Shown here piece by piece: positions 791 to 55,242 of a stretch of 64,000 bases of DNA. A model generated the notes under the pieces. The model saw only the letters and a list, made by a program, of their open reading frames with translations, had not been told where the DNA came from and did not search any database. Numbering within the stretch: the first letter of the stretch is position 1; each line of letters opens with the position of its first letter. The position numbers and the translations under genes are program-made. Source of the stretch: Heptranchias perlo (taxonomy: Eukaryota); the NCBI RefSeq assembly GCF_035084215.1, contig NC_090356.1, positions 20,708,001 to 20,772,000 on the forward strand, given 5' to 3'.

Positions 791-2781
791 CAGCACAGAG
801 CAGGCATTTAACTTGTGACCTCCAACTTGATTATTTTACACTATAGATAATTTATCTGTTTTTTAAAAATGGGTGCTGAGTGTTTGCTTCTGAGGGAGCT
901 GTTGGTCCATGGGCTCTGAGATAAACAATGATCCATTCATGAGTTCAGATTGGTTACTTTCATTTTCCTGAGGGAGGTTTTTAAGAAGTACCACTTTATA
1001 AAGATTTGGGTTTACTTTCTGTATCTCATTCAGTACTTTATATAACTCCATAAGGTCCAATCTGAGACATCAGTTTTCAAGGTTGATCAGATGATTCCCA
1101 ATAGCTCTTCAATTTGCCATCAAGGATCAGCCGAGTTCCTCTCCTCGGCACTGCCTGAAGGGGGCAGTAGTCCAGGAGGCCACAGGTTTGGGTATTGGAT
1201 AATGGCAAATTGTGGACAGACAGCTGGGGGAGTCTCTTTACACAGAGGGCAATGAGCAGGTACAATGGGTTGCCAGTGCAGGTGTCAAGACAATGGATTT
1301 ATTTACAAAACAGCTAGGTGCCGTAATGGGAAGATGATGGGGTTGCTTTTCTGGAAGGAAGAGATCAAATGGGCTGAAGGTCCTTCTCCATCCGAACCTA
1401 TCTTGCGATCTATACAAAATTAATTAAGTCATTAGGCTATGAGTAAACTTAGCAGCTTTCCATAATGTAGAAAGACTCCTGTGTCTGGTTTCTCGTTCCC
1501 TATAATCTCGTATTATTGGGTGTAACTTGCCAGGAGTTACAATGCCCCTCTTCCATTGTAACATCACAGTAGGATGTTACATCAGATTTGTGATGTGTTG
1601 GGTACAGTAAGAAGCTGATGGCAGTTTGTTGAGAGAAAGACAGAGATTGTGGTTAATGGTTGTGGTTCTTTGACATAGTTTGAATATTCTGATATAAAAT
1701 GGGAAATGACAAGCACAATCAGAAAATAAGTACAAGCTGTTTTAGATATCAGAAAGCCAAGCAGGAGATTAAGATTGTACAGGCAAATCATCTATATTAT
1801 TAGTCTGTACTTCAAGGACAAAAAAAATGTAACAGACCATTGCGCAGTGTGGTACTGATCCAGACAGGACAGGAAGGCCCTTGGTCTGTGTTGAGTTTGC
1901 AAGTGTCGGCCAGAACATTGGCGTGGGCTTGGGAGGGCAAAGTCAGCCAGGGGTCATGCACGTGATCACTATACACTGACCCCTGACGCAAGTGCGAAGC
2001 TAAGATCAGCCTGATCTATGATGCCTCACATGGTTGAATTGCCTGCTGATACTCAGGCCTAGATTTCCTGCCTTCCCCTGCTGGCATCACTGGGAAATCA
2101 CCTGGGAAAATACTCCACCACATTCGCTCCCATCGTGCGCTCCCTGGGACTACTGGAGAAAGATACACCCACTCATTGGTAGGCAGAGTAAAAGTGTGCA
2201 CGCAGCAGAGAAATATATCCTGTGTCGTATTTCCCCTGATTTTCCAGGTTGGAATGCAAGAGGCATGTGTTAGGCCGAGGTGTCTGGTGTACTCCTGGTG
2301 GCAGTGGCGGCCCAGAATTGTTTGTTTTGCGAGCCAGGGCTGTGCAAGCGAAGGCTGCAGAGTCTTTGGAAAAGAAAACGCTTTTCACAGGGCAGCACTG
2401 CGGCTACCTGCAACCACCGGTGCCCAATGCTACAAAACTCCGCTCCCAGTGTGGCGTGACCCCTCACCACCACCATCCCCCCCGCCGCATCCGCCCACAC
2501 GGCGGGCCGGAGAGCCTGTCTCCAAAATATTAATGAGGCTGAGGCTGGAAGGTTGTCTGGGGTCAAGGGCGCTTATCCACGGCAAAGGGAAATCCCTTCC
2601 CTCCAGAAATGTACTTGAATCAAAGAAGGGCAGAAGATCCTGGCCTCAGTGTCTAGGCTCATGCACGAAGAATGGCCACTTAGATGTGATGGCAGAGGTG
2701 GCAGATGCCCATGAAATGACCCCAACAAGATGCAGAGGACGAGGTGAAAGAAATGATTAAATTAGAATATTGGATTCTGAT

Positions 2782-3243
2782 TCTGTGGCTCAGTTAGTAG
2801 CTCTCTTGCCGCTGAGCCCGAAGGTCATGGGTTCACGTCCCACTCCAGAGACTTGAGCACAAAATCTAGGCTGACAGTCTGGTGCAGTACTGAGGGAGTG
2901 CTCCACTGTCAGAGGCGCTGTCTTTTGGATGAGATATTAATCCGAGGCCCTGTCTGCCCTCTCAGATGGATGTAAGAGATTGCATGGCACTATTTTGTAG
3001 AAGAGCAGGGGAGTTCTCCCTGGTGTTCTGGCCAATATTTATCCCTCAACCAATAGCGCTAAAACTGATTATCTGTCATTATTTCATCGTCGTTTGTGGG
3101 ACCTTGCTGTGTGCAAATTGGCTGCCATGTTTCCTGTATTACCGCAGTGACTATACTTAAAAATAAGTAGTTCATTGGCTGTAAAGTACTTTGGGGCATC
3201 ATGAGGTCATAAAAGGCACTATATAAATGCAAGTCTTTCTTTT
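2782..3243 (+). mobile_element. Full-length tRNA-derived DeuSINE (SacSINE1-like)
   Basis: A/B-box head (TGGCTCAGTTAG...GGTTCA), Deu-domain core, L2-like tail ctatataaatgcaagtctttc; many copies in the window. Confidence 0.85.
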
Positions 3244-4741
3244 ACAATCAAAGTTTGGTTTCTTTCTTCCAGTTAGTTACTTTATCTCATTTCCTCAGGT
3301 ACAATCCACCCCCCTTCCCCCTCAGACAATGCCTCCATACAGAGTGTAAGTAGTGACCTGCTGACCAGCTTCTGGCAGGGCCACTGTGAATCCAGTCACT
3401 AGGGGGCACAAGCCAATCCTGAGCCCCTAGTTGAATATATTTTCTGCCTGAGTTATGCCAGTTTTCTGGAATTACTTGAGCTGGGGGTTGGAAATGTTGG
3501 GCAATGGACCAAATTGGTCACTGCCCAATTCTGCATTGTAATGTGGACCTTCTGGCATCACTTCCGGTGAATGCTGGAAACAGCGGACCAAATCCAGGGG
3601 TGCCTATTCAAATAAGGTGGTTATGACAGAGTGATGTCATATGCACGTTCCAGTCATGACCTCCTTAGTGATGCTGGGCACCAGTAACACCAGCGTTTCA
3701 TTGGCAGTGGGGTTTAAAATTTAACTGGCCCACTCCATTGAGTGCTCTGCCCCCTCCCACCCATCAGATTTTGTTGGCCCCACAATTCTGTCTGCCAGAA
3801 ACCCGCAGCAATTCTCTACCCCCTCAGTGCCACCACCCCCCCCCACCCCATCCCTCCACTCGGGCGGTGGGCTTCCCAGTGCAGGCGGAAACTGGGATCA
3901 GTGGATGGATGGACAGAAGTCCCATTGCAGAGCTTCTGACCGGCGATGTATAAAACCACAAATTCACTCTTCAATAATCAACGATTTTATTAAACAATCA
4001 ATTCAGAAAAAAGAAATGGTCAAACAATAAAATCTACTCACATTGTAATCCAAACTGGTTCGAACAGCCACCTAAAGTATTACAATTGGGGAGCACCGCA
4101 GCCTGTACTGTTACTGGCCCTCTCACACATTGACCGGAAGGCATTAGCACAGTAATGTCACACAGTGTAATTTCTAGCTTTGTGCCCATTCTTCATCTGT
4201 GAGGCTAGACAGGGAATGTCAGCGTGCTATGCCACCACATGGGCCATCACAACGGTGCCCAATCCCGAGAAGAGGGGAGAAAAGCTGGAGCAGAAAAATT
4301 ATTGAAAAAGAAACTCATTATAAAAATACAGAGTGAAGTAGTATTGTGGTTCTCGGTGTCTGAAACACTCGAGGAGATTAGGGTACTGCACATTAATCAG
4401 TCATGGCCATCCAGTACTCTCTGTGTAACAGTGCTGTTTGAGGTACCTCTTCACTGTGCATATAAGGGGTCATATTCTGAGCCTTGCCCACCAGGAGTGC
4501 ATGTTGGAGATTTGGGTGTGCGCTTGCTAATGATTTTCTGATCATTCAAATTGTTAGTTGGAAAATCGTGTAAAATATGCACTCCAATTCCTGATCTGTG
4601 CTCCCCATGGCAAGGTTTACCTGCAGGGAGTGTGAAGTTGGAAAAATGCCCCCATCGTGTAATCTCAGCTCTCTTAACCTCCCCACTCCCCAATGCAGAA
4701 CTGCTTGGTTGGTGCTGTTTCTAATATATTTTTTCCTCCTA

Positions 4742-5180
4742 TTTTGTGGACTGGAAAATTACCAATATCACTCCATTATTTAAGAAGGGTGGGAAAGAGA
4801 AACCAGATAACTATAGGCCTGTCAGTCTAACGTCAGTTGTGGGGAAGCTACTAGAATCTGCCATTAAGGATAGAGTGACTGAGCACTTGAAGAAATATGA
4901 GCTGATCAGAGAGAGTCAGCATGGCTTTGTTAAAGGTAAGCCATGTCTGACTAATTTAGTTGAATTTTTTGAGGTGGTCACTACTGTGGCAGTTAAGGGA
5001 GTGTCTATGGATGTTGTCTATATGGGATTCCAGAAGGCATTTGATAAGGTTCTACATTAAAGATCATTTGATCAAAATGAGAGTGCGCGAATTGGAGGTA
5101 GCCTTTTGATTTGGGTTGGAAATTGGTTGGGAGGTAGGGGACAGAGAGTGGGGATAATGGGTAGGTACTCAGATTGGAGT
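4742..5180 (+). mobile_element. CR1 LINE reverse transcriptase fragment
   Basis: PLFKKG..NYRPVSLTSVVGKLLE..SQHGF..FQKAFDKV. Confidence 0.9.
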
Positions 5181-5532
5181 ATATGCTGTGCTGGTGGGGA
5201 CGTTGGGTCCAAACCCGTCATGGGGCAAATACATCATGCATGGTTCCACAGACTCTAGTACCTTGATCAAGATGGCCATTCTTTATGATTATGACAGTAA
5301 GCGTCAAGTGACTGTTGCAACATAGAGGGCATTACAGTCAATTAACTCAGAACAGGTCCCATGATTTGAACCTGGTACTTTGTCTGAATGGATAAATTGC
5401 ACATTGACTTTACTAACTGAGCCACCGAAGGAGCGACAGTACCTCACAGTTCCGTAGGAAGGAGAAAGCCTGAAAATACACTGTAAAGACAGATGGAAGT
5501 ACTGTGCCTACAACAAGTGCTGTAAAAGTACA

Positions 5533-6316
5533 CTATAGGTCTTTAAGGAAGGTGACAATGTTGTCAATAGCCTTTTTCCCAGACGGGAAGGTCAGGTAAC
5601 CATTATCGAAGAAGCTGACAATGCCATGGAAGCCATCTTGAACATGGTACCAGGATACTGGAACGCCGTTGTCTTCCAGCCTCTTTTTGAACAGCAGTCC
5701 GTCGTCCCGAAGCACGTCGAACTCGCACGTGAGAATGTACGCTGGCGGCAGTCTCTGGATGGCGGCATCGCTGGCAAGAAGAGGAGAGAAGGTCGGCTCT
5801 AAGCTGGGCTTAACAAGGTCATAAACATCATCATCATGGGTTAGGACAAGACTGGGCTTGTAACCTCTGACCTTAAACTCACTGGGGATCAGATCCGCCT
5901 TTAGCCACTTCCTGTAGTTAGTTTTGAGTCCCACTGGAAGGTGTTGGCCTGACAGTACTTCCTCCCCCAGTGACATGTCACCGTTCAGATAGTGCAGGTA
6001 GAAGAAGACCATGCGTGTTCGAAAGAGGATCGGCACCGATTGGTTTTGCTGGTAGGACGGTAGGTTGAAGTCGACCATTTGGAGAGCCGGATAGATCATG
6101 ACCTGGGCACAGAGAGATGGCAATTCTGAGCTCTCCTCCATGGCAGTGATTCTCAGACACACGGCTGCAGTTAAGTTGCCCCCAGCACTGTCCCCACTCA
6201 CAACGATCCTGGTATTGTCAACTCCGTAATCTTCTGCGGTCCTGAGGAAATGCAGAGTGGCGTTTAGGCAGTCTTCAAGCTGAGTGGGATATCTGTGCTC
6301 AGGTGCAAGACGGTAC
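5533..6316 (-). CDS. AADACL4: AADACL exon 4 (YRLAPEHRYP...GDSAGG...FLKDL*), catalytic triad
   Basis: Acceptor tctctag|G; contains ORF 5533..6201; TAG stop at 5535-5533. Confidence 0.95.
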
Positions 6317-9300
6317 CTAGAGAAACCAGTAGGAAAGCATTAAAATCAACTAGGGTTAGCCTTATTATCAACCTCGGCGAGGGGCCAAAGCCCGTAGTGC
6401 AGGGTACCACCAAGGTTGAAGAGAAAGAGAGAGACTGTACTGCTTGAGGTGGTTAAGTCAGATTTGTCCGTCAGATGCCATGTCTCCTTTGACCTGTGGC
6501 CCATGGACTACAGTCCACTGAAGTGGCTTTTTTACCAGGGAAATGGTGGGGGTGGGTAATGATCTGAGATCTGAAGGAATGGAGATTTTCAAGAGTAGAG
6601 GAAAGGCAGCCATGGACCAGAATGATGGAGGTGTTGGTGCTGGCACGAATGACAGGCTTGAGAGTGCAGTTGTGAGTTGTTTTTCTAGGGATAGAAAGGG
6701 AGGGTGCAGGAGTTGTGATGGGCAGATGATGTGTAAGAAGAAAGAGGTGAGTGGTCATAAATGCCCTGTGTGATGGTGAGCTTTACTGGTTGTGTGTGTG
6801 TGTGTGTGAGAGAGAGATGGAGTTTATGCAGTGAGGTTAAGGGAACAGAGAAGTGTGGAAAAATTGGTGGAGGTGGGGAGGGTGAGTCCAGATGTAGTTT
6901 GGAAAGATTGAGGAGTTGTTCAGTGCAGAGACTGAGAATCAACATTAGAAGATTTAGGTAAGGAAGGTACTGGGGGAGGGTAAACAATGAGAGGTTGGGA
7001 CGGTGGTAGTGAGGTCTTTGATCTTTGGTCTTTGGAAGGGAATGAGGAGACTGTTTGGGGAATCAGAGGGGACATGGAATGAGGAGAGGAGGTTTGAAAA
7101 ATTGATTGTTGGGAGCCTCACAAATGGAGAATTTGCCTAAAGAGTATGAGAATCAATTAGACGAAGCCTGAAGATGAGCCTTCTTAGTGAGGCTGGTGGA
7201 TATCTTCAATGAGGGGCAAGGAGTCACCAAGTTTCAATCAAGCCCAAGACAAGTTTGTGAACAGGAAGGGCCCTGTTCATGAGAGAGCGGACATTTTGCA
7301 GTGCGATGCTGAGGGGGCGGGCAGCTGGAAAACTCACAAGGGGGGAATTGGAAGGGAATGAGGAGGCTCTTTGGGGAATCAGAGGGGACAAGTAATGAGG
7401 AGAGGAGGTTTGAAAAGTCGATTGCCGGGGAGCCTCACGGATGGGGAAAGTGCCAAAGGGGCATGAGGCCACTTAGATGGCTACTTGGAGAGAGCTGGTA
7501 GTGTGTGCCATGATAAACGTGGTGGAGGATGCCCAGGGAGGGTCTGGGCTTATCCAGGTGAGACATGGCTAACATGGTGGCAGGATGGGAGTTCAACAGA
7601 AGAGTAGTGATGGATTGGGTGGGAAATCCACAAGATCAAAGAAAAGTACAGAAGGCAGGAGGAGGGGACAGTGAACAGCAGAGATTGGGAGAGAAGGGGC
7701 AGGAGGTGAGGTAGGGAAACAGGACAGGACAGGACAGAGACTCTGGTTTAATATTGAGTTAACTGTTATGAATAGAGTGACTAACGGACCATCAAAAACT
7801 CTCAATGTTTTCATGGAGTAATACATAAAAACTATCTATTTCTAACGCATTTGTTGGGAATGGGGAAGCAAAACAGTCTTTGGACCAGTAGTTGTCCCCT
7901 TTAGCGCTCATGACATTCGTCCTGAGACCAGGGTTGTCCAACCTTTCATAACAATGCACTGGATTGATGTGCCCTGACTATAGTGAGTGGGCCGTGTAGG
8001 ATTACACTGCCTCTGGCAGAACCATGATTAAACAGCACAATTAACAAAACATTTAGAACAGAACCTCCCGCCAGATGAGGTTGATAAGAACAGTAGGAAT
8101 AGAACGTTCTGGAGCAACAGTTATGTAGAAACACATTTCTCTTAGTGATTTAGTAAAGTTGCAAGGAAAGAAGCCTTGCTTTAGTTCTGGGAAATGAAGT
8201 GGGGGCAAATCGCTGATGGGATAGGAGAACAATTGGGAAATCATGAGCACAAAATAATTGGGACCAAAGTAAGAATGGAAAAGGGTCATGAAAAGTGAAA
8301 GGTAAGGTTACTGGAGTGGAAAAAGGCAAAGTTCAGTGAGATGAGGGATCTGGCCCAAAGCAACTGGTCTAAAAAGTTAGCAAACAGAATCATGGATCAT
8401 CAGTGAAGAATCTGCAAATGTAAGATGGATAGAATACAAAATAAATATATTCCTATCAAAGAATAAAGTTCCACGGATAACATAGGAAGATGTGAATTGA
8501 TTAGCATAAAAAGGCCAAGGTCCATCTAGTTCACCTTCTACCATCCTGGTAGTCGCATGATACAATGATAATGGAGTTGTTGACTAATCATAGCAATCAA
8601 TCCCTACAAAGAGAGAGAGATTAAATCTAAACAAACTTACAAAGGAGGCCTGTGATAAAATTAGGGCTCACAATACTGAAGACAATCAAGAATATAGAAA
8701 ATGTAGTGGAGAGTGGAAAAGGGAGATCAGAAGGGCTAAGGAACAAGATAAAAGGCTAGCAGATTATATAAAAGGAAATAGTAACTGCTTTTGTAAGTAT
8801 ACGAAAAGTAAAAGAATTTTCAAGAGAGGATTGCACAGCTCAGGAAGAAAGGAAGGAGTCTGATTGTGACGGATAAAGGCATGACGGTGATATTAAATAA
8901 ATAGTTTACATCAGTTTTTGTTTACAAATGATGGTGGAAATGTAAATGTTAGGATGCTAGAGGGGGATATGGGATGATTGTTAGAGATGACTGTAGAAAA
9001 GCAATTGGTTCTGAAAAAAATGAGCAGAACTCAAGGTGGATAAGTCACTGGGTCCTGATGGCTGAACCCTGGGCTGTTGAAGAGAGGAGATAGCAGGGAC
9101 TCTGGCCACAGTATTTCGGTCTTCCTCAAATATACAAATTGTGGGACTGGATAGCCACCGATGTATAATCTCTGTATGAGAAAGGAGAGAAGGACAAACC
9201 AAGTATTTATGGGCAAATTATGGGCAAACTCTTTGAATCCATTAATCAAGATAAAATTAGAGACCATTTAGAAATGTATGGGTTGGTTGACAGACAGAAA

Positions 9301-12300
9301 ACAAAGAGTTAGAGGAAATGTATGTTACTTTGATTAGAGAAGGGTTGGAAGTGGTGTGTCCCAGGCTCAGTGCTAGGTCCACTTTTGCTCTTGGTATCTA
9401 TCGATGGTTTGGATTTTGGCATTGGGAGCACAATCCTGAAGTTTGCTGATGACACAAGAGGTTTGACAAACAGTGAGGAGGACTGCAAAAGATTTCAGGG
9501 AGACAAACAGTGGAATGGGCATACTGGTAGTGGATCCAATTTAATATGGAAAAGTGTGAGATATTTTGGGAGAAAAAACAAGGTAATGGGAGTATGTACT
9601 GAATGGAAATAAGTCAAAGGGTGTGACCTACGGGTTCAAATACATAAATCCCTAAACATGCGAGTGCAGGTAGATAAGGCCATAAAAAAGGCCAACAATA
9701 TTTTGTGTTTTATAAATTGGAGCATTAAGTACAAGGGTAAAGAACCAAAAATAAATTTGCACGAACATCGGCTAGGACACAGTTAGAGAACTGAGTCCAG
9801 TTTTGGGCAGCCCACTAAAGAAAAGACAGTAAACCATTGAGAGCGGGCAGTGTAGATTCACTAGGATGATACCAGGGATGGGAAACTATAGTTACGAGGA
9901 GAGATTTGAGATACCAGGACTATTTATGCTGGAAGTGACTGACAGGACATTTAATAGAGGTTTTTAAAATAATGAAGGGTTTTGACAGCGTGAATACAGA
10001 AAAGGTTTTCCCTTTGTTGGAGAGTCTATGATGAAGGGGTCACCAATTTGAAATTATCATTAAGAGAGTGAGGAAAGAGTTCAGGAGGAATTTCTTTATA
10101 TAGAGGGTTGTTGGAACATGGTTGAGGCAGAGACCATTGCATCAGCAGGAGGGCATTCAGCCTGTCATGTCTGCTGGCTCTTTACTAGGACGCTCTAAAC
10201 CTAATCTCAAATCCTGCACCCCCCCCCCCCTTATAGTCCCGTATCTTTCTCTGATTCAAATATTTATCCAATTTTCCCATAAAAGTGCTAAAGAGAAAGG
10301 GTGGGACTAGTATGAGTCGGGATTGCGAGCGGTGACTTTCAGCATAACAATAGGATACATAGGAATGTAATAAGAGTGCGATAAGCATTTGCACGTGAAC
10401 ATAAAAGGCGAGAGGTTCTACCCTCTGCTGAGGGGAGATTCGGGCTCAGCTGTGATTCCACCGTAGTTGAATAGCTTTCCAACTCTCCAGACTCTCAGAC
10501 AAAGGACAAAGGGCACCTGGAGGTGTTGGAATTCGATGACCCAACCATCGAGAGGAGAGGGGAAAAATTAGACAGAAAACAAAACCGTCCCCCTCACTCG
10601 TGAATGAGATCACAGACTGGAGTGGACGATTGACCTGCTGGAAGAATTAGGTTCCGCTCTGCACAGCAGTTGGCCCCAAGCAGTGCTGCTTTTAAAAAGA
10701 TTAAGGTGAGCCCAGCATTAACAATTTGCCAATTTTATTAAGCACAGTGTCCCCCTGTGTAAGCAGGTTGTTGGTACTCACTCCACGGACACCACGACCG
10801 AGTCCGTTTCCTTGGCGATGTACCGGCACAAATTGTCATAATCATCTGAGGAAGAAAATCCACATTAGTTACTAGGAATTAATTTTGTGCTCATCAAGAG
10901 GAGGAATGTTAGTGCTGAGAACCCAGTTTCAGCATCAAACATGCACTCCCATGAAGTGATGCCCTGAGCTGGGAGCACTCAATCATAAAATTCACCCCTG
11001 TACACCTTAGTGCAGGGAGTGAGCCTTTGGTTAGCGGTAGCATTCCCGCCTCTGAAGGGTTCGAGCCCCACTCCAGGCAGCCCCGGTGAGTGGAGACTAG
11101 AATATGGTCTCTAAATACTGGGGTGACGTCCAGTGGGGGACTCGTATCCGGATGGAGTGACCACTGGCTCAGGGGTAGTGTTCCCGCATCTGAGTCAAAA
11201 AGATAGGGTTCGAGCCCCACTCCAGACAGCCCCGGTGAGCGGAAACTAGAGCACCGGATCTGAATACTGGATTGACGTCCAACAGAGGTACTTGCCCGAT
11301 GGGTGCAGGTGCCTCCACCTATCATAAGGGGTAGGTGAGGCTTTTTACTCTTGGTTGCAGCCCACCCAGGAGAAGGTAATCTGAAGATATAAACTGTGAG
11401 GAAGGCAATGGGAAACCACCTCAGCTACACATCCCTAGTAAGTGTCTCAAGAATCTCATGTGAGTTTTGAGTTAGGGGAGAACACATCTGAGAGACCTTA
11501 GTGCAGCAGTGTCCATGTTTCCTGTCTTGATGGGCTGCACGGGTCTGTCCCATGGAGTCTCTGGATGTAAAAGGCATGTAAAGTTTAAATCTCTGTTCCT
11601 GTTAATATATCTCAGATCTTGGTTTTCTGATATAGGAATAATCCAACAATGAGGCAATCATGCTAAGAACAGTCCGTTCTAAACCTCCAGGCCCACAAAA
11701 TTTAACTAGAACAAACCAATGAGTACAAATATAAATAGGACTGCGTTGCCTGGGCTTTGAGGGCCAATTGCCAGGGCTCAGGGGCCTTGAGCTGCTGTTT
11801 GGACACCTCTGACTTTGTCAATAGGTGCGCTGGCTGGTGTAGCACTGAGACTTACAGACCAGAAGGTCCAAGGCTCCATCCCCAGCCTGTGCTGAGTTAG
11901 CTGATCTCAGCCTGTACACTGACAAGTGTGCACCAATTACCCTCAGCATCTGTGGCTTAGGGAAAGGAAAATTCAGCCAGAGTTCCTACTCCTGATTGTT
12001 ATCAAGTGACTCCCTGGAATGTGAGTGAGTGTGGATGTCGGGCGAGGTGCTGGCTCATCCTGAGGGTCATTTCCAAGGTTACCAGCCGCACTCCACAATG
12101 AACCTGGCGGCGAGGGGTCAAAGTTCCTCTCGGCTGAAAAGACCCCCAGTCAAACAGCCAGGAGATTAAAATTCCACTGGGTGCTTCTTTTAAAAAAAAA
12201 GAAAAGTAAGAACTTGCATTTATATAGTGCCTTTCACGACTTCCGATGTCCCAAAGCGCTTTACAGCCAATGAACTGTGGGGCATGGCTCTGCGCAAATT

Positions 12301-15300
12301 AGCTGCCGCATTTCCTACATTACAACAGTGTGATAAAGACCAAATAATCTGTTTTAGGTGTTGGTTGAGGGAAAAATATTGGCCAGGACACTGGGGACAA
12401 CTCCCCTGCTCGTCTTCAAAATAGTGCCATTGGATCTTTTACGTCCACCTGAGAGGGTTTAACATCTCATCTGAAATTCGTCACCTCCAATAGTGCTGCA
12501 TTCCCTCAGTACTGCACTGGACTGTTAGCCTAGATTTTGTGCTCAAGTCTCTGGAGTGGAACTTGAACCCATGACCTTCTGACTCAGAGACGAGAGTGCT
12601 ACCAACTGAGCCACCGCTGACACCTTTAACCTTTATTGGACATATCTTAATAACGATTAAATTAGCAAAGAGAGGAACTTTGACCCCTCGCCGCCAGGTT
12701 CATTGTGGAGTGCGGCTGGTAACCTTGGAAATGGCCCTCAGGATGAGCCAGCACCTGCGGGTGAGGAGGGAGAGAAACTTGGCAGAATTGTTCTCAAGTT
12801 GCAAATCGTGGAACCAACGCATAAAACAACTGACCCTACACAGTCACGCATATTCCTGAGGAACTGCCCTATAGGAGCAGGGGTCCATGAAACCGGACAC
12901 ACAGCTCAGTTGTCGGGGAGTACGTCTCCGGCACTTACTTATGCTGCCAAACACCCAGCCGCCACCGTGAAAGAACATGACCCCTCGTCTTGTTCCCGCA
13001 GACGCTGACTGTGGTTGGTAAACCCTCACGGGGACACCGTCAAATTGCACGTCTTGGATGATGAGCCCAGCTTCTTCCTTGTGTTTTGTCCCATGTAGTT
13101 TTGTTCTCAGGTAGCGAACGATGGTGATCTGGGGTCCGAAGCCCATGTTCTGAGCGATGTTTCCCTGGGAGTGGGGGGAGGAAGAGAGAGGAGGTTAAAA
13201 CAACAACAACCTGCATTTATATAGCACCTTTAACATAGGAAAACGTCCCAAGGTGCATTGCCAAACAGAACATTGACACCAAGCCACGTAAGGAGATATT
13301 AGGACAGGTGACCAAAAGCTTGGTCAAAGAGGTAGGTTTTAAGGAGCGCCTTAAAGGAGGAGAGAGAGGTGGAGAGGCGGAGAGGTTCAGGGAGGGAATT
13401 CCAGAGATTAGGCCTAGGCAGCTGAAGGCACGGCCACCAATGGTGGGGTGAATGGACTGAGGGATGGATCCTGGAGGGTTGTAGGGCAGGAGGAGGTTAC
13501 AGAAATAGGGAGGGGCGAGGCCATGGAAGGATTTGACCATTAGGATGAGAATTAAAACAGAATGAAAGCAGTTTGAGAAGGAGCAGACACAAAACAAACT
13601 ATCTATCACAGTTATTCCCTTTTCTCTGCAACGCTCTCTCCTCCGTTCCTGAAGACCCTGCCTCCCTGCGGGGGTACAGGTACCATGGGCACCCTCTGGC
13701 ACTTTAACCGAGTGGCCGCACTTTGTGCAGGCTGCTCGAGAGTGGTATTTGAACGTGTCCTTGCCTGATATTCATACATAGGCACTTTCCAGTCACTGTA
13801 TTAACTGCTTGCGACGCTCCCTGCAGTTGAATAGCCTGCTGACACTCACTGTCCTGCCTGACTGAATAGCCGTTTGGGTGAGGTCGGCAGAGTGAACAGT
13901 GCCCGTGGTCCATGCCCTGGCAGGAGTCATTGCCCCTCCCCCACACCAATCCCCCGGAGGGAAGAGGAGAAAATTGGAGGGCAAAATTAATTAGCCACAA
14001 ATTTTTAAAATTATTTTCAGCCACCACACATGTAGAATCACAGAAATCTCGAGGCTGGAAAAAACCATCTGGTCCACTCTCTTTGTGTCCTAGGAGTTGC
14101 ATTTAACAATGTGTTTTTCTTCAAGCTCCTTGAATTTGACCCTGAAGAACTCTAAGTTACTTGGCCCTACACCCTCCCTCGATGTGAGTAATCGATCACC
14201 CTCTCAGTAGAGTCTCTCCATGGTCCTCACTGAATCCCCCCGTTCTCCTCTTCTACTCATGTCTGCTGCTGTCTTGTGATGCTACAAATACCCCCGGACG
14301 AGGCACTTCGTCCCTCAGTCTTATCTATTTGAATAACTCTATCCTATCCCTCAGTCTCCTCTCCAGTGAGAAGGGCCCCAGTTCTGTGAGTCTACCCTCA
14401 CGAGATAGATTCCCAAGTCCCCTTATCAATCATGGCAGTTCTTCTCGGCACCTTCTCCAGTTCAGCTACGTCCATTGTGTAGTGTGGGTTCCTGATCTGC
14501 CTGATACCCTAGTGGGGACCTGACCAATGCTCTATATAATGGCGGGATTACTTCCTTACCCTCTGTGCCTCTGTAGAGTAAAGGGGGGGGAGAGGGGGGC
14601 TTTGAAAGGAGGACAGACATTACTCAATTTTCATTCAAACTCCTCCCCTCATGGCAAGATCACCATTGAGATTCTGGTGGACGCACGTCATTGTTCAACG
14701 ACACTCTTCACTGCTCTGCCCCTTGGTTGAGTTCTATGACGTAGTTGACATTCGTTCCATTGACCTATCCTATCTCAGCTGTACAAAACACTCCTATTGT
14801 ACCGTGACCTTGTTCAAACTCAAAACAGGCTACAATGAAACCTTTACTTCCACTCATTCTGTATCGTGCTGGAGAACCGAGCAGGATTAGGGTGAGGACA
14901 GTCGGCTAACTGAGACTCTATGGGGGTGAAGGGACGTTTGACCCTTTAATTAATTGAATGCATTACAGCAAACTGAACCGTGACTCTCACTAAAGGGAAT
15001 CACTGCCGCTCTCCCCGAAAGTTCAGTGAGCATAGGCACGCCTGGTTTGCAATTAAACCGTAGAGGTCACAATGCCCTGGTATAGACTCTCAGTCTGTGC
15101 TGATTTAACTAATCTCAGTAGTTCGGCTGTGACAATTTGCGTCAATGTCTCTGGAATAGGAGGGGGAGGGGGGGTGGAATCAGGTCCTTACTGGAAACTA
15201 CATGCGTGAAGGACAGGATCAGGCTCAGCTATGATGCCCTCCACAGTTGACTAGCTGGTTGACACTCGGTGGCTGGACTCCTGCATCTTGGGTGAGGTGG

Positions 15301-16625
15301 TGGAGAGGATTTTTCTGAGGAGAAAACTGATGGGGGCGGGGGGAGGGGGGAACGTTTCCAGGCCTTGTCAGTAAAGTGTGATTTTAATGGATAAAATTTC
15401 AAATAGCACGCTCCCTGCTCAGAGTCTCACCCACTGGGAGCACACATCAAAAACCACACGTGTGATTTAAAATGGGCCGGGAGCGTGCATGTGGACGACA
15501 CACGCCATTGTTAATATACAAATCAGCCAGCAAGTTCAGGGGATGAAGAGATACGCCCTGATTAGCGAATCTTCAGAACTTGCTGGTCGATTTATGCCTC
15601 TCCGCCATTTGCCTCACACAAGCGGCAGCTCGCCCTTATCTGCCCCGTTATTTTTAAGAACTTGTTGGATTTGCACATTAATGACCATTAAATTCTCCGC
15701 AGAAAGTTAAGTCTGGTAATTAAGAGCGTAAATACCTTTTTAACAACATGATAATTGTTAATGCAATGACATTCAACCTCTCTGGCCCAGAATGGGATCA
15801 ATTTAAACTGTTCAATCTCATTCCTTCAAGCTGGTGAATTGTTGGAGGTTTAAAAATGTCAAATTTTAAAATTTTACATTTTATTACTTTTCCTTTTTGT
15901 CCCTTTCTTCGCTCTCCCTGAATCCAATCTTTCTTTCCCTCTCTTTATTTCTCTTTCTGTACCTAATTTGACTCTAATTCACCCTCCTTCTCAGTCGTTC
16001 CTCAGTTTCTTTCTCATTCCTTAAATCTCATTGATTAAGGAGATAGACTGTTGGTCCCATCATTCACTAAGGTCCCAGATGCCCCATTGCCCTTGCTGCT
16101 CCGTTCCGAGCTCGCACTTCCAGCAAGTTGGGGCACAAAAAAATCTTGAGCTGAAGGGTGCAGGAAAAAGTCTAATTAATGGTGTACACCGCGAGATGCC
16201 CCGCCCCAAGTCTGGCCCGTTGTGCACTCCCCTGTGCGAGGCTCAGTTCTGGGAGTGCACAATCAGAACATTTATCCATTAAATCTCATACTGGGATTTT
16301 CCTTTAAGATCCCAGTCTGGATGACATGCAGCTTCCCTTTAAGTCAAAAGAAATTAATTAGTAACTGCCTGTGTTAGCCGAGCTTTTTGTATCACTAAAC
16401 TGCTGCCTCGAGTTTGTCGAGTCGTCTGATTCTCGCAGAGCTTCTTACCAGTGTGCATGTTGCGATTTGCATTCCATGGATGAGCCGGAGTTTCCCCGGT
16501 CCCTGGATACCTGGTGGCAGAACCGAGTCGGTGAAGACGGAGTAAATGACCCCGGAAACCAGCAGCACAAACAAGCCCACCACAACAGCCACCGTCATAG
16601 TCAACATCCAAAGCAACAGATCCAT
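5533..16625 (-). CDS. AADACL4: Arylacetamide deacetylase-like 3/4 esterase, 4 coding exons: complement(join(5533..6316,10782..10845,12939..13164,16449..16625)), 1251 nt, 416 aa
   Basis: Spliced frame is open with GT-AG introns (phases 0,1,2). It has an N-terminal hydrophobic anchor, HGGG oxyanion motif, YRLAPEH, GDSAG nucleophile elbow, EFDVLRDDG and GFHG motifs of hormone-sensitive-lipase-family hydrolases. Head-to-head with DHRS3, as AADACL4 is in human. AADACL3 vs AADACL4 orthology cannot be resolved by eye. Confidence 0.9.
6350..7350 (-). mobile_element. L2-clade LINE ORF2 endonuclease-region remnant
   Basis: ALQNVRSL...IETW N-terminal APE motif; strand-biased purine-rich composition. 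Confidence 0.6.
8280..10335 (+). mobile_element. Degraded CR1 LINE (RT to 3' UTR)
   Basis: DKSLGPDG, LGPLL..KFADDT, LGHS*ENCVQFW-like remnants. Confidence 0.8.
10782..10845 (-). CDS. AADACL4: AADACL exon 3 (DYDNLCRYIAKETDSVVVSV), 64 nt, absent from the ORF track
   Basis: Acceptor ttcttcctcag|AT, donor GA|GTGAGT; phases join exon 2 to exon 4 in frame. Confidence 0.92.
12045..12756. repeat. 87-bp inverted repeat (12045-12131 / 12670-12756), 1 mismatch
   Basis: Manual reverse-complement alignment. Confidence 0.93.
12190..12625 (-). mobile_element. SacSINE1-like SINE in AADACL intron 2
   Basis: Reverse complement of the family consensus, head at about 12620. Confidence 0.8.
12939..13164 (-). 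CDS. AADACL4: AADACL exon 2 (GNIAQNMGFG...FHGGGWVFGSI)
   Basis: Acceptor tcccag|GGA, donor A|GTAAGT; FDGVPVRVYQP and HGGGW motifs. Confidence 0.93.
13198..13560 (-). mobile_element. L2 LINE 3' end, abutting the AADACL exon 2 acceptor
   Basis: KSFHGLAPPY...GGRAFS; tail tatataaatgcaggttgttg. Confidence 0.85.
16449..16625 (-). CDS. AADACL4: AADACL exon 1 (MDLLLWML...ATCTL), signal-anchor segment
   Basis: ATG at 16625, 59 codons, donor CTG|GTAAGA; hydrophobic stretch followed by LPPGIQGPGKLR. Confidence 0.88.
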
Positions 16626-16799
16626 GATACTGTTTCTGGAAATAAACCTTCAGCAGGCCCAGGGAACGTCCAGACAGACTCTCCCCTGCTCTCTTGCCCC
16701 TGTCAGTCTGGTCTCTGCGCTGCCCAGTGTCCTTGTGCTGTAACCGTTGGAAATTGAGGAAGAGGAATGACCTCACTGTAAACTCAGGAACTGGAAGTG

Positions 16800-18393
16800 G
16801 TTGTGTGTGTGAGGGGTGGGGGCTGTGTGTGTGGGGGGGAGGGGTNNNNNNNNNNNNNNNNNNNNNNNNNNNNNNNNNNNNNNNNNNNNNNNNNNNNNNN
16901 NNNNNNNNNNNNNNNNNNNNNNNNNNNNNNNNNNNNNNNNNNNNNNNNNNNNNNNNNNNNNNNNNNNNNNNNNNNNNNNNNNNNNNNNNNNNNGGAGGGT
17001 GGGGGGGGTCTGTGGGGGGGGGGTGGGGGGGTGTGTGTGTGGGGGGGTGGGGGTGTGTGGGGGGTGGAGGGTGGGGGGGTCTGTGGGGGGAGTGTGGGGG
17101 GGGTGGGGTTGGTGTGGGGGGGGTGGGGGTGTGTGGGGGGTGGGGGGTGGGGGGGGTCTGTGGGGGGGGTGGGGTTGGTGTAGGGGGGGTGGGGGTGTGT
17201 GTGGGGGGTGGGGCGTGGGGGGGGGTCTGTGGGGGGGGGGTGGGGGGGTGGGGTGTGTGTGTGGGGGGGGTGGGGTTGGTGTGTGGGGGGGGTGTGGGTG
17301 GGTGGTGGGGGTGTGTGTGGGGGGGGGTCTGTGGGGGGGTGGGGTTGGTGTGTGGGGGGTGGGGGGTGTGTGGGTGGTGGTGGGGGGGGGTGTGGGGGGG
17401 GTGGGGTTGGTGTGGGTGGTGGTGGGGGGGTGGGGGTGTGTGTGGGGGGGTTGGGGTTGGTGGTGGGGGGGTGGGGGTGTGTGTGGGGGGGTTGGGGTTG
17501 GTGNNNNNNNNNNNNNNNNNNNNNNNNNNNNNNNNNNNNNNNNNNNNNNNNNNNNNNNNNNNNNNNNNNNNNNNNNNNNNNNNNNNNNNNNNNNNNNNNN
17601 NNNNNNNNNNNNNNNNNNNNNNNNNNNNNNNNNNNNNNNNNNNNNNNNNNNNNNNNNNNNNNNNNNNNNNNNNNNNNNNNNNNNNNNNNNNNNNNNNNNN
17701 NNNNNNNNNNNNNNNNNNNNNNNNNNNNNNNNNNNNNNNNNNNNNNNNNNNNNNNNNNNNNNNGTGTGTGTGGGGGGGGGTGGGGTGTGTGTGGGGGGGG
17801 TGGGGGTGTGTGTGTGGGGGGGGGTCTGTGGGGGGGGTGGGGTTGGTGTGTGGGGGGTGTGTGGGTGGTGGTGGTGGGGGGTGTGGGGGGGTGGGGTTGG
17901 TGTGGGTGGTGGTGGGGGTGTGGGGGTGTGTGTGGGGGGGTTGGGGTTGGTGTNNNNNNNNNNNNNNNNNNNNNNNNNNNNNNNNNNNNNNNNNNNNNNN
18001 NNNNNNNNNNNNNNNNNNNNNNNNNNNNNNNNNNNNNNNNNNNNNNNNNNNNNNNNNNNNNNNNNNNNNNNNNNNNNNNNNNNNNNNNNNNNNNNNNNNN
18101 NNNNNNNNNNNNNNNNNNNNNNNNNNNNNNNNNNNNNNNNNNNNNNNNNNNNNNNNNNNNNNNNNNNNNNNNNNNNNNNNNNNNNNNNNNNNNNNNNNNN
18201 NNNNNNNNNNNNNNNNNNNNNNNNNNNNNNNNNNNNNNNNNNNNNNNNNNNNNNNNNNNNGGGGGGGGTGGGGTTGGTGTGGGGGGGGTGGGGGGGTCTG
18301 TGTGGGGGGGTGGGGTTGGTGTGGGGGGGGTGGGGGGGTCTGTGTGGGGGGGTGGGGGTGTGTGTGGGGGGGGGGGGGTGGGGGGGTGTGTGT
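16800..18393. repeat. G/T-only low-complexity tandem array with three N gaps (16846-16993, 17504-17763, 17954-18260)
   Basis: GGGGT/GTGT/GGGTCTGT units read directly. Confidence 0.95.
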
Positions 18394-18504
18394 GACTTCA
18401 ATGGAAATATAAAGGGTGAGATGTGAAGCGAGCTCTTGTCTTGCTATTGCCCTTTCCAGTTGATCGCACAGAGTCGAGATCTACCCAGAGGTTCTACAAA
18501 ACCC

Positions 18505-21100
18505 TGGCCTAGAAATCCGGTCGCTCAGCATTGCTTCTTTCAGGCAGTAATTGGCCTATTAAGGTCCTAATATGATGGGCAGGAAGTGGCGCACATTTCT
18601 GGATGGAAGTGCGCCTCCCGCCATATTGGATACGGTGGATGTGCTGGCGTCAGGACCGCATGTCGGGATTGTTTAAATGGGGGAATAATTAATTCAGATT
18701 AGGGTGCGGCCCTTCTTGCCGGACCTCTTTCTATATTCGATCACCCCAGCACCTCACTCGCCAATGCTGAACTCACACAGCTCAATGTGGCGCTAACCCG
18801 CAGGAAGGACCCCTCACCAGCGCTATTTGAAGGGGCCATGCAGTAATCACAGGGCAGTTGCTGGTTCCTTATTCCAGGCTGCTTGTTAACTTCTGGACGT
18901 TTCTTGGTGTGTTTTATCACTCTGGGACGTTCACTTTGCACAGAGCAGGATTCTGCTGCTCTTGCACCTTTTTTTGACTGCCTCACAGATAGTTTGGCTG
19001 CAGTCCTGGGTGGCCTGGTCGGGCTGCCTTTGGGGCTGGAGGAAGAGGGGGAGCAGTAAGGAAGAGGCCAGAGAGCAGGAGCAGCTGCCAGGAGGCGAAT
19101 ATTCGGGGAGCACTTCTCCTACATTAACATTGCTCAGGAGCAATGTCTCAGTCGCCTTTGCTTCACCAAGGAGGCTGTCACCGAGATATGTCACCTGCTG
19201 CAGCCACAGTGCGAGCTCGTAACAGGCCATGGGCAGCACTTTTATGCCACTGGCTCCTTTCGGGCTGCAGCAGGTGACTTCAGTGACATCTCCCAGTTTG
19301 CAGTCCACCTTTCAGGGAGTTTGCTGAGGCTCTCTACACCAGGAGGAACCCCCTCCATCTCCTTCCCCGTGGACCAGGGCGAAGCAGGAAGAGAGAGCAC
19401 TAGGCTTCACCTAGATGGCAGGTTTCCCCAGGGTGCCATAGATTGCACACGCACATGTTCCCTATCACCAGCCTGGCATCTTTATCAATCGAAAATGATT
19501 CCACTCACTCAACGTACAGCTGGTGTGTGACCACAGGCAGCGCATCATGCAGGTCTGTGCCCGCTATCCAGGCAGCAGTCGTGACTCCTTCATCCTGCGC
19601 CAGTTCTCTGTGCCACCTTTATTCCGACCAGGCCATCAAGTTCCAGGCTGGCTAGTGGGCGACAAGGGCTATCCCCTCCAGATGTGGCTCATGATTCCTG
19701 TCACGAACCTGCACACAGCTGCAGAGCAGGCCTGCAAGAGCCAGGCTAAGGCAGGACAGGTCAACATAATGAACGTCAAATATCTCTCAGAACCCAGCCA
19801 AAGGGGAGTGTAGGGAAGTGTGTCGTTGAACAATGATGTGAGTATGCCAGAATCTCAGTCCTCCTTCCAAACCCCCCACCCCCCTTTACTCAACAGATTG
19901 GAAGGAAGTAATCCTACCATTGTATAGAGCGTTGGTCAGGTCTCCACTAGGTTGTGTCAGCCTTGGCTCAGTGGGTTGCACCCTCGCCTCTGAGTCAGAA
20001 GGTCATGAGTTCAAGTCCCACTCCAGAGACCCGAGCATGTAATCAAGGCTGAGACTCCGAGTGTTGTACCCGAGGGAGGTGCTGTCCTTTGGATGAGATG
20101 TTAGACCCAGGCCCTGTCTGCCCTCTCAGGTGGATGAGAGCCATGCGGCCACAAGAAACATGACTGAGCAAACCATTGGCCTGCTCAAGCAATGCTTCCA
20201 CTGCCTGAACCATTCCATCCGGAGGACCTTGCGGTACATCCCTGCGCAGGATTTGTGGTCGTCTGCTGCATGCTGCACAACTTCATGAGGGACCTGCCTT
20301 TACCGCCACCTGGGCAACAACAAGTGCAGGAGGAGGAGGGGATGCAGCGACCAGCTCATCGAGGAGGGCTTTGACCTAAATCAAACCTTCAACCCAATGC
20401 ACCAACCGTCCCACAGTCCTTACCACCACAATCCAATTGCCTTCCTTCTGTCTGGATTTATGGGTCTTGCTCTCACTTCACCAACACCAAATCCAGAACA
20501 AAAAACAAAATTATCAATCAACTCAATGACATGTCTGTCTAACAGTGAGCAGAAATAGTTAAGAATCACCCTTAGGTGCCTGTCTTGTGTGCTCCGTTCC
20601 CTATCCTGGTGCGCCCACGAGTTTCCCCAGTGCCTGCGGCTCGGGAAGTGGGAGGCTGCTGAGCTTCTGTTCAGGACACTTCAGATGGCCTTGGTGAGCG
20701 ACCTCTAGCAATCCTGGGCTTTGAGGGCTCGGCTGCAGACTGCACCATCCTGGCCTGGGCCGGGGCTGTGTGGCTCGAGTAAGGGCACTGGCGGTGTGGC
20801 TAGCGGGGGAGCGGGGATGTTACCCTGAGAGAGGACAGCAGGTTCCTCCCCCATGGAGCCAAGGCCAGTCTCCTGGGACGGGGCCTCAGCACTCCACCTT
20901 ACTGCTCTGTGCAGGACCGCTGTGACGCTTTGAAGGACCCCCCCCCCCCCCCACAATCTCCTCTTCCTTTTTCGCCGTTCATGGGTTCTGATGGCGCAAA
21001 TCCCCAGGCAAATCTGGGCCATTGTTGTCTGTCTCAAACTCAGTGGCTGCTGGACTTAAAAAAACGTGTCAGCTCTCATTTAATTATCAACCACAGCCCT
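18505..21100 (+). mobile_element. Decayed PIF/Harbinger DNA transposon (HARBI1-like DDE transposase pseudo-ORF about 18990-20380); outer boundaries approximate
   Basis: Fragments QGAIDCT, FINRK*FHSLNVQLVCD, ARYPGSSRDSFIL, LVGDKGYPL, TEQTIGLLKQCFHCL, VVCCMLHN with stops, frameshifts and a 400-bp insertion. Confidence 0.85.
19955..20136 (+). mobile_element. SacSINE1-like SINE 5' half, inside the Harbinger remnant
   Basis: Head through caggtggatg, then abrupt return to transposase sequence. Confidence 0.8.
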
Positions 21101-23407: not shown

Positions 23408-23511
23408 ACCACATGGAGTGATTGAGGAGAATAACATTGATGCATTTGAAGGGAAGCTAGATAGGTAGATGAGGGAGAAAGGAATAGACGAATACATTGA
23501 CAGGGTGAGAT

Positions 23512-28657: not shown

Positions 28658-28990
28658 TTTGCGTGTGTGGCAAATCGGTCTGGAACGATTAACCTCCGTG
28701 TGATCCCGGACAACAGCAAAGAGAAAGAAGAAAAAAATAAAATATTTGAAAGAAAAATATGGTTTTAAAACCAAGAGAAATTGATTGAACAGGAAGGCGC
28801 TCAGCCAGTGAAATTGACACGCACTTAAAGGTTTTTTTTTTGGCTGGGGCAAAAAAAAAGTTTTTTTTTGGCCAAACTTTTTTTTTTGTCTAGGTGAACT
28901 TTTCTGCTGCAGAGGACGGGGTGCAGTTCCTTTTTTTTTTGTGTGTGTGTGGTTTTTGTTGGTTTGTTATTGTTTAGGATGAGCCCGGAG

Positions 28991-29185
28991 ATGGATTGGA
29001 GGAGCCTGGGTTCGCTGCTGCTCTTCCCGATGCAAATGGTCTTTTACGTGGTCAAAGCCGCCGTGTTACTGCTGCTGCCCGTCAGACTGAGGGAGCTGAG
29101 CCGGGACACCGTCCTCATCACCGGGGGAGGCAGAGGCATCGGTCGCCACCTGGCCCGGGAGTTCGCCAAACAAGGGGCTCGAAAG
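28991..29185 (+). CDS. DHRS3: DHRS3 exon 1 coding part ([13 protein letters not shown]...GARK)
   Basis: gagATGg Kozak context; TGGGRGIG; donor AAG|GTGAGT. Confidence 0.95.
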
Positions 29186-53999: not shown

Positions 54000-54445
54000 G
54001 TCAAGTCTCAGCTTGGTTCAGTGGTGGCACTCTTGACTTCTGGGCCAGAAAGTTGTGGATTCAAGCCCCAGTTCAGGACTAGAGCACATAATCTCGGCTA
54101 ACACTTCAATGTAGTACTGAGGGATTTTTGTTTTGTTGAAGGTACTGTTCTTTGGATGAGACTTAAAACCAAGGTCCTGTGCAGGTACATGTAGAATGGT
54201 ACATCTATGGCAATTTTTTCTGAATTTCCTGTGTTCATCCATCACTGATCCGTAACCAACGCCACAACAACAGATTATCTGGTCATTTATCTCATTTCTG
54301 TTTGTGGCACCTTGCTGATCACAAAATGGCTGCTGTGTTTGACTGCAGAATAACAGTAATTACACTATAATTCAATGGCTTTGAGGCACTTTGGGACATC
54401 CTGAGGACATGAGAGGCTCTCTATAAAGCCAAGAACTTTCTTTGC
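54000..54445 (+). mobile_element. Diverged DeuSINE copy
   Basis: Head, core and tail recognisable. Confidence 0.7.
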
Positions 54446-54659: not shown

Positions 54660-55242
54660 CATGCCTTTGTTACCTCCAGACGCAACTATTTCAATGCTCG
54701 CCTGGCCGCCTCCCACCTTGACCCCTCCGTAATCTTGAGCTCATCCAAAACTCTGCTGCTCGTATCCTAACTTGCACCAAGTTCCGTTCACCCATCATCC
54801 CTGTGCTCGCTGATCTACATGGCCTCCCGGTCCGGCAACACCACGACTTAAAAATTCTCATCCTTGTTTTCAAATCCCTCCATGGCCTCGTCCCTCCCTA
54901 TCTCTGTGACCTCCTCCAGCCCTACAACCCTGCGAGATCTCTGCGCTCCTCCAATTCTGGCCTCTTGCGCATCCCTGATTTTCATCGCTCCACCATTGGT
55001 GGCCGTGCCTTCAGCTGTCTAGGCCCTAAACTCTGGAATTTACTCCCGAAAACTCTCCCTCTCTCTCTCCTCCTTTAATACGCTCCTTAAAACCTCTCTC
55101 TTTGACCAAGCTTTTGGTCACCTGTCTTAATATCTCCTTATGTGGCTCGGTGTTAAATTTTGTCTGATACCGCTCCTGCGAAGCGCTTTGGGACATTTTA
55201 CTATATTAAAGGCGCTATATAAATGCAAGTTGCTATTGTTGA
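54660..55242 (+). mobile_element. L2 LINE 3' fragment
   Basis: [33 protein letters not shown]. Confidence 0.9.

What the first reader, a model, noticed from the sequence alone, without database searches (positions are those of the whole stretch)
2822..20013. SINE head repeatedly yields a perfect DR2 RARE, apparently via CpG deamination (Alu-like mechanism in a shark SINE)
Seen: three SacSINE1-like copies carry perfect DR2s overlapping the Pol III B box: AGGTCA-tg-GGTTCA (2822-2835), its reverse complement TGAACC-ca-TGACCT (12564-12577) and AGGTCA-tg-AGTTCA (20000-20013). The copy at about 32734 instead reads AGGTTG-tg-GGTTCA. CA versus TG at the same two positions points to an ancestral CpG (AGGTCG) deaminated on either strand. 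Known: primate Alus generate DR2 RAREs by the same AGGTCG->AGGTCA route. Inference: this very abundant SINE may have seeded large numbers of RAR/RXR sites in chondrichthyan genomes. One copy lies between the AADACL and DHRS3 promoters. I am not aware of this being described.
Basis: partly seen in the sequence, partly recalled or inferred. Interest (0 to 1): 0.7.

Follow-up and report, generated by a model that had tools for sequence, protein, structure and literature searches.

The report
Shark SINE spawns retinoic-acid-element lookalikes
Copies of a very common shark jumping element carry a perfect match to a retinoic-acid receptor binding motif, likely made copy by copy by ordinary decay of a methylated CG as in human Alu repeats, but nothing yet shows that these sites are used, and they are likely mostly passive.

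Summary
The three perfect DR2s are real (3 found, 0.19 expected). All sit at one position in the tRNA-like head of a SacSINE1-like SINE at a shark AADACL4/DHRS3 locus. CpG deamination is the likely source of CA. Real tRNA genes with this motif read CG or TG, never CA (0 of 121). A CG state exists family-wide. The family's other CpGs decay the same way.

1. TG is the family majority in contig data from four organisms. An older group of copies reads TG, so probably only a younger, CG-bearing subfamily makes DR2s.
2. CA shows no excess over neutral decay (3 of 4 young copies, p about 0.06).
3. Alu matures the 3' half-site (AGTTCG to AGTTCA), not the 5' one.
4. The intergenic copy is nested in a dead Harbinger-type transposase 9 kb from the DHRS3 start. 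DHRS3 has three perfect DR5s outside this SINE, which are likelier response elements.

Verdict: a new, convergent case of a known process (repeat proto-motifs maturing by CpG decay). I did not find it in print. Function is untested.

The parts
2781..3244 (+). Near full-length SINE copy, younger group; perfect DR2 at 2822-2835; 2.7 kb past the AADACL4 stop
12201..12620 (-). SINE copy, younger group; perfect DR2 at 12564-12577; AP-1-like TGAGTCA at 12580-12586; AADACL4 intron 2
19957..20136 (+). 3'-truncated SINE copy, likely younger group; perfect DR2 at 20000-20013; TGAGTCA at 19991-19997; intergenic
19499..20288 (+). Broken Harbinger-type (DDE_Tnp_4) transposase interrupted by the 19957 SINE: profile positions 28-109 before it (E 1.9e-12), 116-148 after it (E 3.6e-4)
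32691..33161 (+). Full-length SINE copy, younger group; TG state AGGTTG-tg-GGTTCA at 32734-32747 (no DR2); DHRS3 intron 1
54009..54445 (+). Older-group SINE copy; TG state at 54050-54063
47182..47540 (+). Older-group SINE copy; TG state at 47199-47212; DHRS3 intron 5
11025..11261 (+). Two degenerate head fragments (site deleted; site TA with a gap)
5533..16625 (-). AADACL4, four coding exons (about 16625-16449, 13170-12950, 10860-10790, 6320-5533)
28979..47766 (+). DHRS3, six coding exons
35611..35627 (+). Perfect DR5 AGTTCA-n5-AGGTCA outside this SINE, DHRS3 intron 1
36740..36999 (.). Cluster outside this SINE in DHRS3 intron 1: perfect DR5 at 36937-36953 (-), one-mismatch DR2 at 36740 (+), one-mismatch DR5 at 36983 (-)
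45737..45753 (+). Perfect DR5 outside this SINE, DHRS3 intron 4
54700..55232 (+). LINE-like 3' end whose last ~45 nt match the SINE tail (same at 13205-13600 -, 34782 -, 38221 +, 40417 +); likely the mobilising partner

Best explanation
The three DR2 motifs lie at one position in the tRNA-derived head of a shark SINE, where the 3' half-site (GGTTCA, part of the B box) is carried by most copies and the 5' half-site likely turns from AGGTCG into AGGTCA, copy by copy, by deamination of a methylated CpG, giving sites that are likely mostly passive. Steps: (1, shown) the motif is the tRNA variable loop plus T arm; real tRNA genes read AGGTYG-TG-GGTTCA. (2, inferred) The family has at least two kinds of source: older or other lineages with TG, which need two ordinary changes to reach CA and so rarely give a DR2, and a younger lineage with CG. 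(3, inferred) After insertion, copies are methylated and the CpG decays about equally to TG (motif lost) or CA (perfect DR2). In the young copies here, other CpG-type sites split TG 0.38, CG 0.27, CA 0.27. (4, inferred) This leaves a DR2 in roughly a quarter of head-bearing copies in the window's organism and about a tenth in three relatives, probably of the order of 10^4 sites per genome. (5, untested) RAR/RXR and other DR2 binders would bind such a sequence as naked DNA, but most copies are expected to be closed, methylated repeat DNA. DHRS3's retinoic-acid response more likely runs through its non-SINE DR5s.
For: CA is derived: among 121 matches of the same motif in 120 viral loci (108 under an ARAGORN tRNA) the dinucleotide is CG 68, TG 50, AG 2, GG 1, CA 0. 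The A breaks the first T-stem pair with no compensatory change, and the partner C changes in only 2-4% of depth. CG exists: laid on the CA copy, G at position 6 exceeds T at position 5 by about 14, 19, 13 and 5 points in organisms A, B, C, E. Background A>G is 2-8% and T>C 1-5%, so E is not clearly above background. CpG decay is strong: 18 CpG-type sites in six young copies give TG 33, CG 24, CA 24, other 7; window CpG o/e is 0.38; a neighbouring CpG in the head decays symmetrically (CA 25.6%, TG 25.9% in A). The CA copies form no well-supported clade (best support 71 for two of three). SINEs are hypermethylated in elephant shark (PMC5437953, passages). Passive reading: CA does not exceed TG in the reference-matched comparison in any of the 4 organisms; P(at least 3 CA of 4) = 0.065 before allowing for ascertainment; the intergenic copy is nested in a dead transposase.
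Against: No copy in the window retains CG (0 of 4 young copies, P = 0.28). The CG share is derived from single-position totals, not from phased copies. The contig data are strongly reference-biased: in organism A, CA is about 49% on the CA reference but at most 4% on the TG reference. The tool warns that depth is no copy number. CG looks scarcer relative to CA (ratio about 0.3-0.9 in A, 0.2-0.7 in E) than at the control CpG (439 versus 570 clipped contigs in A), which leaves room for a CA source copy. The two-group tree rests on 9 copies, with support 89 for only two of the three old ones. Passivity is inferred from sequence alone; Alu DR2s do bind RAR in cells (PMC1785376).
Confidence: 0.62

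Rival explanations
1. A source copy already carried AGGTCA and spread the DR2 by retrotransposition; CA and TG are subfamily markers, and CpG decay per copy is minor.
For: Subfamily variants are plain at neighbouring sites (12532, 12537, 12561, 12595). 3 of 4 young heads here are CA. CG is scarce in organism E (about 5%). Some AluS subfamilies amplified a ready-made DR2 (PMC1785376).
Against: CG stands well above background in A, B and C. The tree of young copies is star-like, and the TG copy 32734 belongs to the same group. CA breaks the T stem uncompensated.
Confidence: 0.18
2. The SINE DR2s arise by CpG decay and a measurable share has been co-opted as RAR/RXR enhancers, including the copy upstream of DHRS3.
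For: Three perfect DR2s lie within 27 kb of a textbook retinoic-acid feedback gene (PMC11808460). The head also holds a TGAGTCA AP-1-like site and a third near-half-site. Precedents are Alu and mouse RSINE1 (PMC8240256).
Against: No CA excess. The copy nearest the DHRS3 start (intron 1) is TG. The intergenic copy is nested in a dead transposon. Local CpG o/e is 0.31-0.43 around the three CA copies, like bulk DNA, against 0.78 upstream of DHRS3. Mouse Dhrs3 elements are at -1.36 kb, -0.98 kb and an intron-1 DR5, which fits the non-SINE DR5s here better.
Confidence: 0.15
3. The single ancestral state is TG, and CA arises by two ordinary transitions or by gene conversion.
For: TG is the majority state and a normal tRNA state.
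Against: Ordinary transitions run at 1-8% per site here, so double hits would be well under 1%, against CA at 8-28%. The other intermediate, TA, is near background (A at position 6 is at most 3.9% on the TG reference), while CG is above it.
Confidence: 0.05

Closest known systems
AluS DR2 elements (Laperriere et al. 2007, PMC1785376; parts 1-2 of 6 and passages read)
   Same: Pol III SINE head; DR2 whose 3' half-site overlaps the B box; perfect motif completed by CpG deamination; the opposite outcome (TG) destroys it; large copy numbers.
   Different: Alu is 7SL-derived and matures the 3' half-site (AGTTCG to AGTTCA) with the 5' half-site fixed. Here the head is tRNA-derived, the 3' half-site is already perfect and the 5' half-site matures. 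In AluS the three states are of similar size (102,657 CG, 93,278 CA, 80,444 TG), whereas here TG dominates. RAR binding is shown for Alu and untested here.
Mouse RSINE1 proto-motifs (Judd et al. 2021, PMC8240256; passages read)
   Same: tRNA-derived SINE whose imperfect motifs mature after insertion by CpG deamination; nuclear receptors including RXR occupy a subset; only a minority become enhancers.
   Different: The CpG route there concerns E-boxes at the 3' end, not a DR2 in the tRNA head, and occupancy was measured.
SacSINE1 / SacSINE1-CM / LmeSINE1 (DeuSINEs; PMC5499810 parts 1-2 of 6 and passages, PMC2746220 passages; the original description was not held)
   Same: About 460-470 bp, tRNA-like head, tail shared with a LINE, chondrichthyan host, very abundant (218,294 insertions reported in elephant shark).
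   Different: 'Retinoic' occurs 0 times in either main text, and 'CpG' 0 times in PMC5499810.
Mouse Dhrs3 RAR-bound elements cRE1, cRE2, cRE5 (PMC11808460; passages read)
   Same: Same gene; the best human-mouse-conserved elements include an intron-1 DR5, and this shark intron 1 holds two perfect non-SINE DR5s.
   Different: Orthology of the shark DR5s to cRE5 was not tested. The SINE DR2s lie much further upstream than cRE1 and cRE2.

Membership tests
SacSINE1 (DeuSINE) | tRNA-derived head with A and B boxes | tested here: met
   Heads carry TGGCTCAGT..GG and GGTTCAAGT. The same motif marks real tRNA genes. No intact tRNA is called in the window.
SacSINE1 (DeuSINE) | Length about 463 bp | tested here: met
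   Full copies span 464-471 bp; profile of about 460 positions; 463 bp in PMC2746220.
SacSINE1 (DeuSINE) | 3' tail shared with an L2 LINE | tested here: inconclusive
   The last ~45 nt align with five LINE-like 3' ends in the window. That these are L2 is recalled from the look of the C-terminal peptide; Pfam gave no hit on the one piece scanned.
SacSINE1 (DeuSINE) | Central Deu domain and identity to the published consensus | not testable with these tools
   No consensus obtainable.
SacSINE1 (DeuSINE) | Abundant in cartilaginous fishes | tested here: met
   The window's AADACL4 last exon is 100% identical to a record its source names as Heptranchias perlo, and the next hits are sharks and rays. 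The family covers 6.75% of the window. 25,016-46,603 contigs per run lay on one head.
DR2 retinoic acid response element | RGKTCA-n2-RGKTCA sequence | tested here: met
DR2 retinoic acid response element | Bound by RAR/RXR in open chromatin and needed for a response | not testable with these tools
   No binding or chromatin data. Local CpG depletion fits methylated DNA.
DR2 retinoic acid response element | Conserved at the orthologous place in relatives | not tested
Alu-type DR2 by CpG deamination | CpG present in a source element at the maturing position | tested here: met
   CG about 14, 19, 13% in A, B, C on the CA reference; about 5% in E, near background. Indirect, from single-position totals.
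Alu-type DR2 by CpG deamination | CA and TG outcomes about equal across the family | tested here: not met
   Reference-matched CA/TG is 0.44, 0.14, 0.13, 0.09. TG exceeds CA even on the CA reference in B (54 vs 27) and E (73 vs 22). This points to TG-bearing lineages on top of the decay.
Alu-type DR2 by CpG deamination | Maturing CpG lies in the 3' (B-box) half-site | tested here: not met
   The last A of GGTTCA is G in only 2-8% of depth; the variable CpG ends the 5' half-site.

The most novel reading that the evidence does not exclude
The tRNA variable loop plus T arm is a built-in DR2 proto-motif, so tRNA-derived SINEs can seed retinoid-type sites independently of Alu. In sharks a CG-bearing SacSINE1-like subfamily scattered of the order of 10^4 perfect DR2s, each beside an AP-1 site, and a measurable share became real RAR/RXR (or other DR2-binder) enhancers that reshaped retinoic-acid regulation in cartilaginous fishes, possibly including DHRS3 feedback.
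Probability: 0.13. Interest if true: 0.7.

Novelty: new member of a known kind. Interest (0 to 1): 0.35.

Why it matters
It gives a second, independent vertebrate case in which a Pol III SINE head sits one CpG decay from a perfect DR2, reached through the other half-site and from a tRNA rather than 7SL. It also supplies a built-in control: CA, CG and TG copies of the same age and sequence differ by one or two letters. That makes the open question of how often repeat-borne motifs become functional directly testable in sharks. As it stands the pattern fits neutral decay, so the value is the test system, not a demonstrated regulatory innovation.

Tried and rejected
No whole genome is held, so the phased genome-wide table could not be built. 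Scans for more copies found none in metagenome contigs or prokaryote genomes. Viral scans returned tRNA-type motifs rather than SINE copies and were reused as a tRNA control. No RNA holder was listed for window 21000-30000; this is no evidence on expression. ARAGORN and Rfam found nothing in the window. Single heads did not fold better than shuffles (z 1.69, -0.97, 0.02, -0.79). The first T-stem count was mis-registered and redone; it shows no covariation. No SacSINE1 consensus was found: PMC5499810 has no readable supplement, searches of two other supplements gave 0 hits with one file not searched, and the original paper is not held; these unseen files bear on family membership and on the published consensus at this site. 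Four look-ups of earlier scan findings returned nothing. Summed contig depth was rejected as a copy number. Either single reference was rejected as an allele estimate, because the two disagree about tenfold. The shuffle p-value was rejected as evidence of function, because the three sites are copies of one element. No clear target-site duplications were seen at three copies.
Full report
Observation. All three, and the TG copy at 32734, are the same position of one repeat. A profile search found 8 heads at E up to 0.0011: CA in 3, TG in 3, TA with a gap in 1, site deleted in 1, CG in none. The family gives 22 profile hits covering 6.75% of the window. The excess over chance is repetition of one element.

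Locus. The minus-strand gene is AADACL4. Its last exon is 100% identical to a record named by its source as Heptranchias perlo, and its ATG is at 16625. The plus-strand gene is DHRS3, ATG at 28979, six coding exons. The DR2 copies lie 2.7 kb past the AADACL4 stop, in AADACL4 intron 2, and between the genes (9.0 kb from the DHRS3 ATG). The copy nearest the DHRS3 start, in intron 1, is TG. The intergenic copy is truncated and interrupts a dead DDE_Tnp_4 transposase, with consecutive profile parts on either side.

The element. It is about 465 bp, with A and B boxes in the head and a tail whose last ~45 nt match five LINE-like 3' ends in the window. This fits the published description of SacSINE1 (PMC5499810, parts 1-2 of 6 and passages; PMC2746220, passages). 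No consensus could be had, so the Deu domain is untested and I keep 'SacSINE1-like'.

Is CA derived? The motif is the tRNA variable loop and T arm. These are viral, not shark, tRNAs. In the SINE heads the A breaks the first T-stem pair with no compensation. So CA is derived, but TG is as good an ancestral state as CG.

Family-wide counts. With no genome held, I laid contigs of 4 of the 24 listed runs (organisms A, B, C, E) on the CA head and on the TG head at 80% likeness. On the CA head 46,603, 46,442, 25,016 (55% of that run read) and 40,315 contigs lay. T at position 5 was 36, 54, 39, 73% of depth and G at position 6 was 51, 73, 56, 78%. This gives CA about 49, 27, 44, 22% and CG about 14, 19, 13, 5% if TA is negligible. 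On the TG head, C at position 5 was only 7.6, 5.2, 1.7, 2.2% and A at position 6 was 3.9, 1.8, 1.0, 1.6%. Reference bias is therefore large. Taking each allele from the reference that matches it gives CA/TG of 0.44, 0.14, 0.13, 0.09 and a CA share of about 24-28% in A and 8-11% in the others. These are rough, because depth is no copy number and the two references differ in divergence. Three points survive the bias: CG is above background in A, B and C; TG beats CA even on the CA reference in B and E; and a neighbouring CpG decays roughly symmetrically (25.6 vs 25.9% in A, 17.6 vs 22.1% in E). The last A of the 3' half-site is G in only 2-8%, so that half-site is ancestral.

Subfamilies. With CpG-type columns removed, six of nine copies are 79-88% alike and star-like (CA 3, TG 1, two headless). 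Three are only 63-79% alike to the rest, sit on long branches and share some diagnostic letters (TG 2, one headless). Support for the old group is partial: 89 for two of the three. In the young group 18 other CpG-type sites give TG 0.38, CG 0.27, CA 0.27. Against that, 3 CA of 4 has P = 0.065 and 0 CG of 4 has P = 0.28. Those sites were chosen for being polymorphic, so the rates are approximate. The simplest model is TG-bearing lineages plus a younger CG-bearing lineage that decays both ways. A CA source copy cannot be excluded, since CG looks somewhat scarce relative to CA. Elephant shark SINEs are hypermethylated (PMC5437953, passages), which supplies the substrate.

Function. Nothing here shows binding. 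CA is not in excess of neutral decay, and CpG o/e around the three CA copies (0.31-0.43) is like bulk DNA (0.38), against 0.78 upstream of DHRS3. DHRS3 has three perfect DR5s (35611, 36937, 45737), and a perfect DR1 lies 2.1 kb upstream (26821). None is in this SINE and none is repeated elsewhere in the window; repeats outside the window were not checked. In mouse, RAR binds Dhrs3 at -1.36 kb, -0.98 kb and an intron-1 DR5 (PMC11808460, passages); zebrafish dhrs3b also has RAR sites nearby (PMC11040003, passages). The DR5s are the likelier response elements (inference). The number of perfect SINE DR2s per genome is probably of the order of 10^4. That is an inference from contig counts and the CA share, not a measurement.

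Comparison. Alu DR2s arise as AGGTCAnnAGTTCG to AGGTCAnnAGTTCA, in the 3' half-site within the B box (PMC1785376; one figure legend prints the 3' half-site as AGGTCG, still the 3' one). The shark case is the mirror image and convergent. Mouse RSINE1, a tRNA-derived SINE, shows the same principle for E-boxes, with a minority of copies becoming enhancers (PMC8240256, passages). It works like these cases but is not the same route.

Novelty. Eight searches of the open library (listings and abstract starts) gave no paper on DR2s in a shark SINE. Most subscription papers and several supplements were out of reach. Verdict: observation confirmed, mechanism likely right for part of the family, Alu detail wrong, function unshown. 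New member of a known kind; interest 0.35.

Noticed in passing
window 12580-12586, 19991-19997, 32725-32731: The head carries a perfect AP-1-type TGAGTCA, whose GAGTCA ends 2 nt before the DR2 and forms a third near-half-site (GAGTCA-n2-AGGTCA-n2-GGTTCA). The listed changes at these positions are mostly under 4% of depth in three of the four runs, so it is probably far commoner than the DR2.
   Followed up: partly
window 35611-35627, 36740-36999, 45737-45753, 26821-26833: Three perfect DR5s in DHRS3 introns, one in a cluster with two near-matches, and a perfect DR1 2.1 kb upstream; candidates for the real DHRS3 retinoic-acid elements.
   Followed up: partly
window 18880-20400: Broken Harbinger-type transposase with the SINE nested in it, next to a long GT-rich simple repeat with assembly gaps (about 16770-18400) just upstream of the AADACL4 ATG.
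   Followed up: partly
window 3205-3210, about 33120-33125 and other SINE tails: The SINE tail holds a second AGGTCG-like site with mixed CG, CA and TG states, which yields lone AGGTCA half-sites.
   Followed up: no
window 12276-12330: A short inverted piece of SINE body inside the 12201-12620 copy.
   Followed up: no
window 11025-11261: Two head fragments in tandem, each followed by a similar GC-rich stretch; may be a chimeric or tandemly duplicated derivative.
   Followed up: no
window 22098-22919 (-), 58000-59530 (+), 61070-62105 (+), 4725-5060 (+): LINE reverse-transcriptase fragments (RVT_1 hits).
   Followed up: no
window 30900-31260: GC-rich tandem array of short units in DHRS3 intron 1.
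   Followed up: no
L001-L124: Viral tRNA genes carry AGGTCG-TG-GGTTCA itself, so the DR2 proto-motif is a general property of many tRNAs and may recur in other tRNA-derived SINEs.
   Followed up: partly
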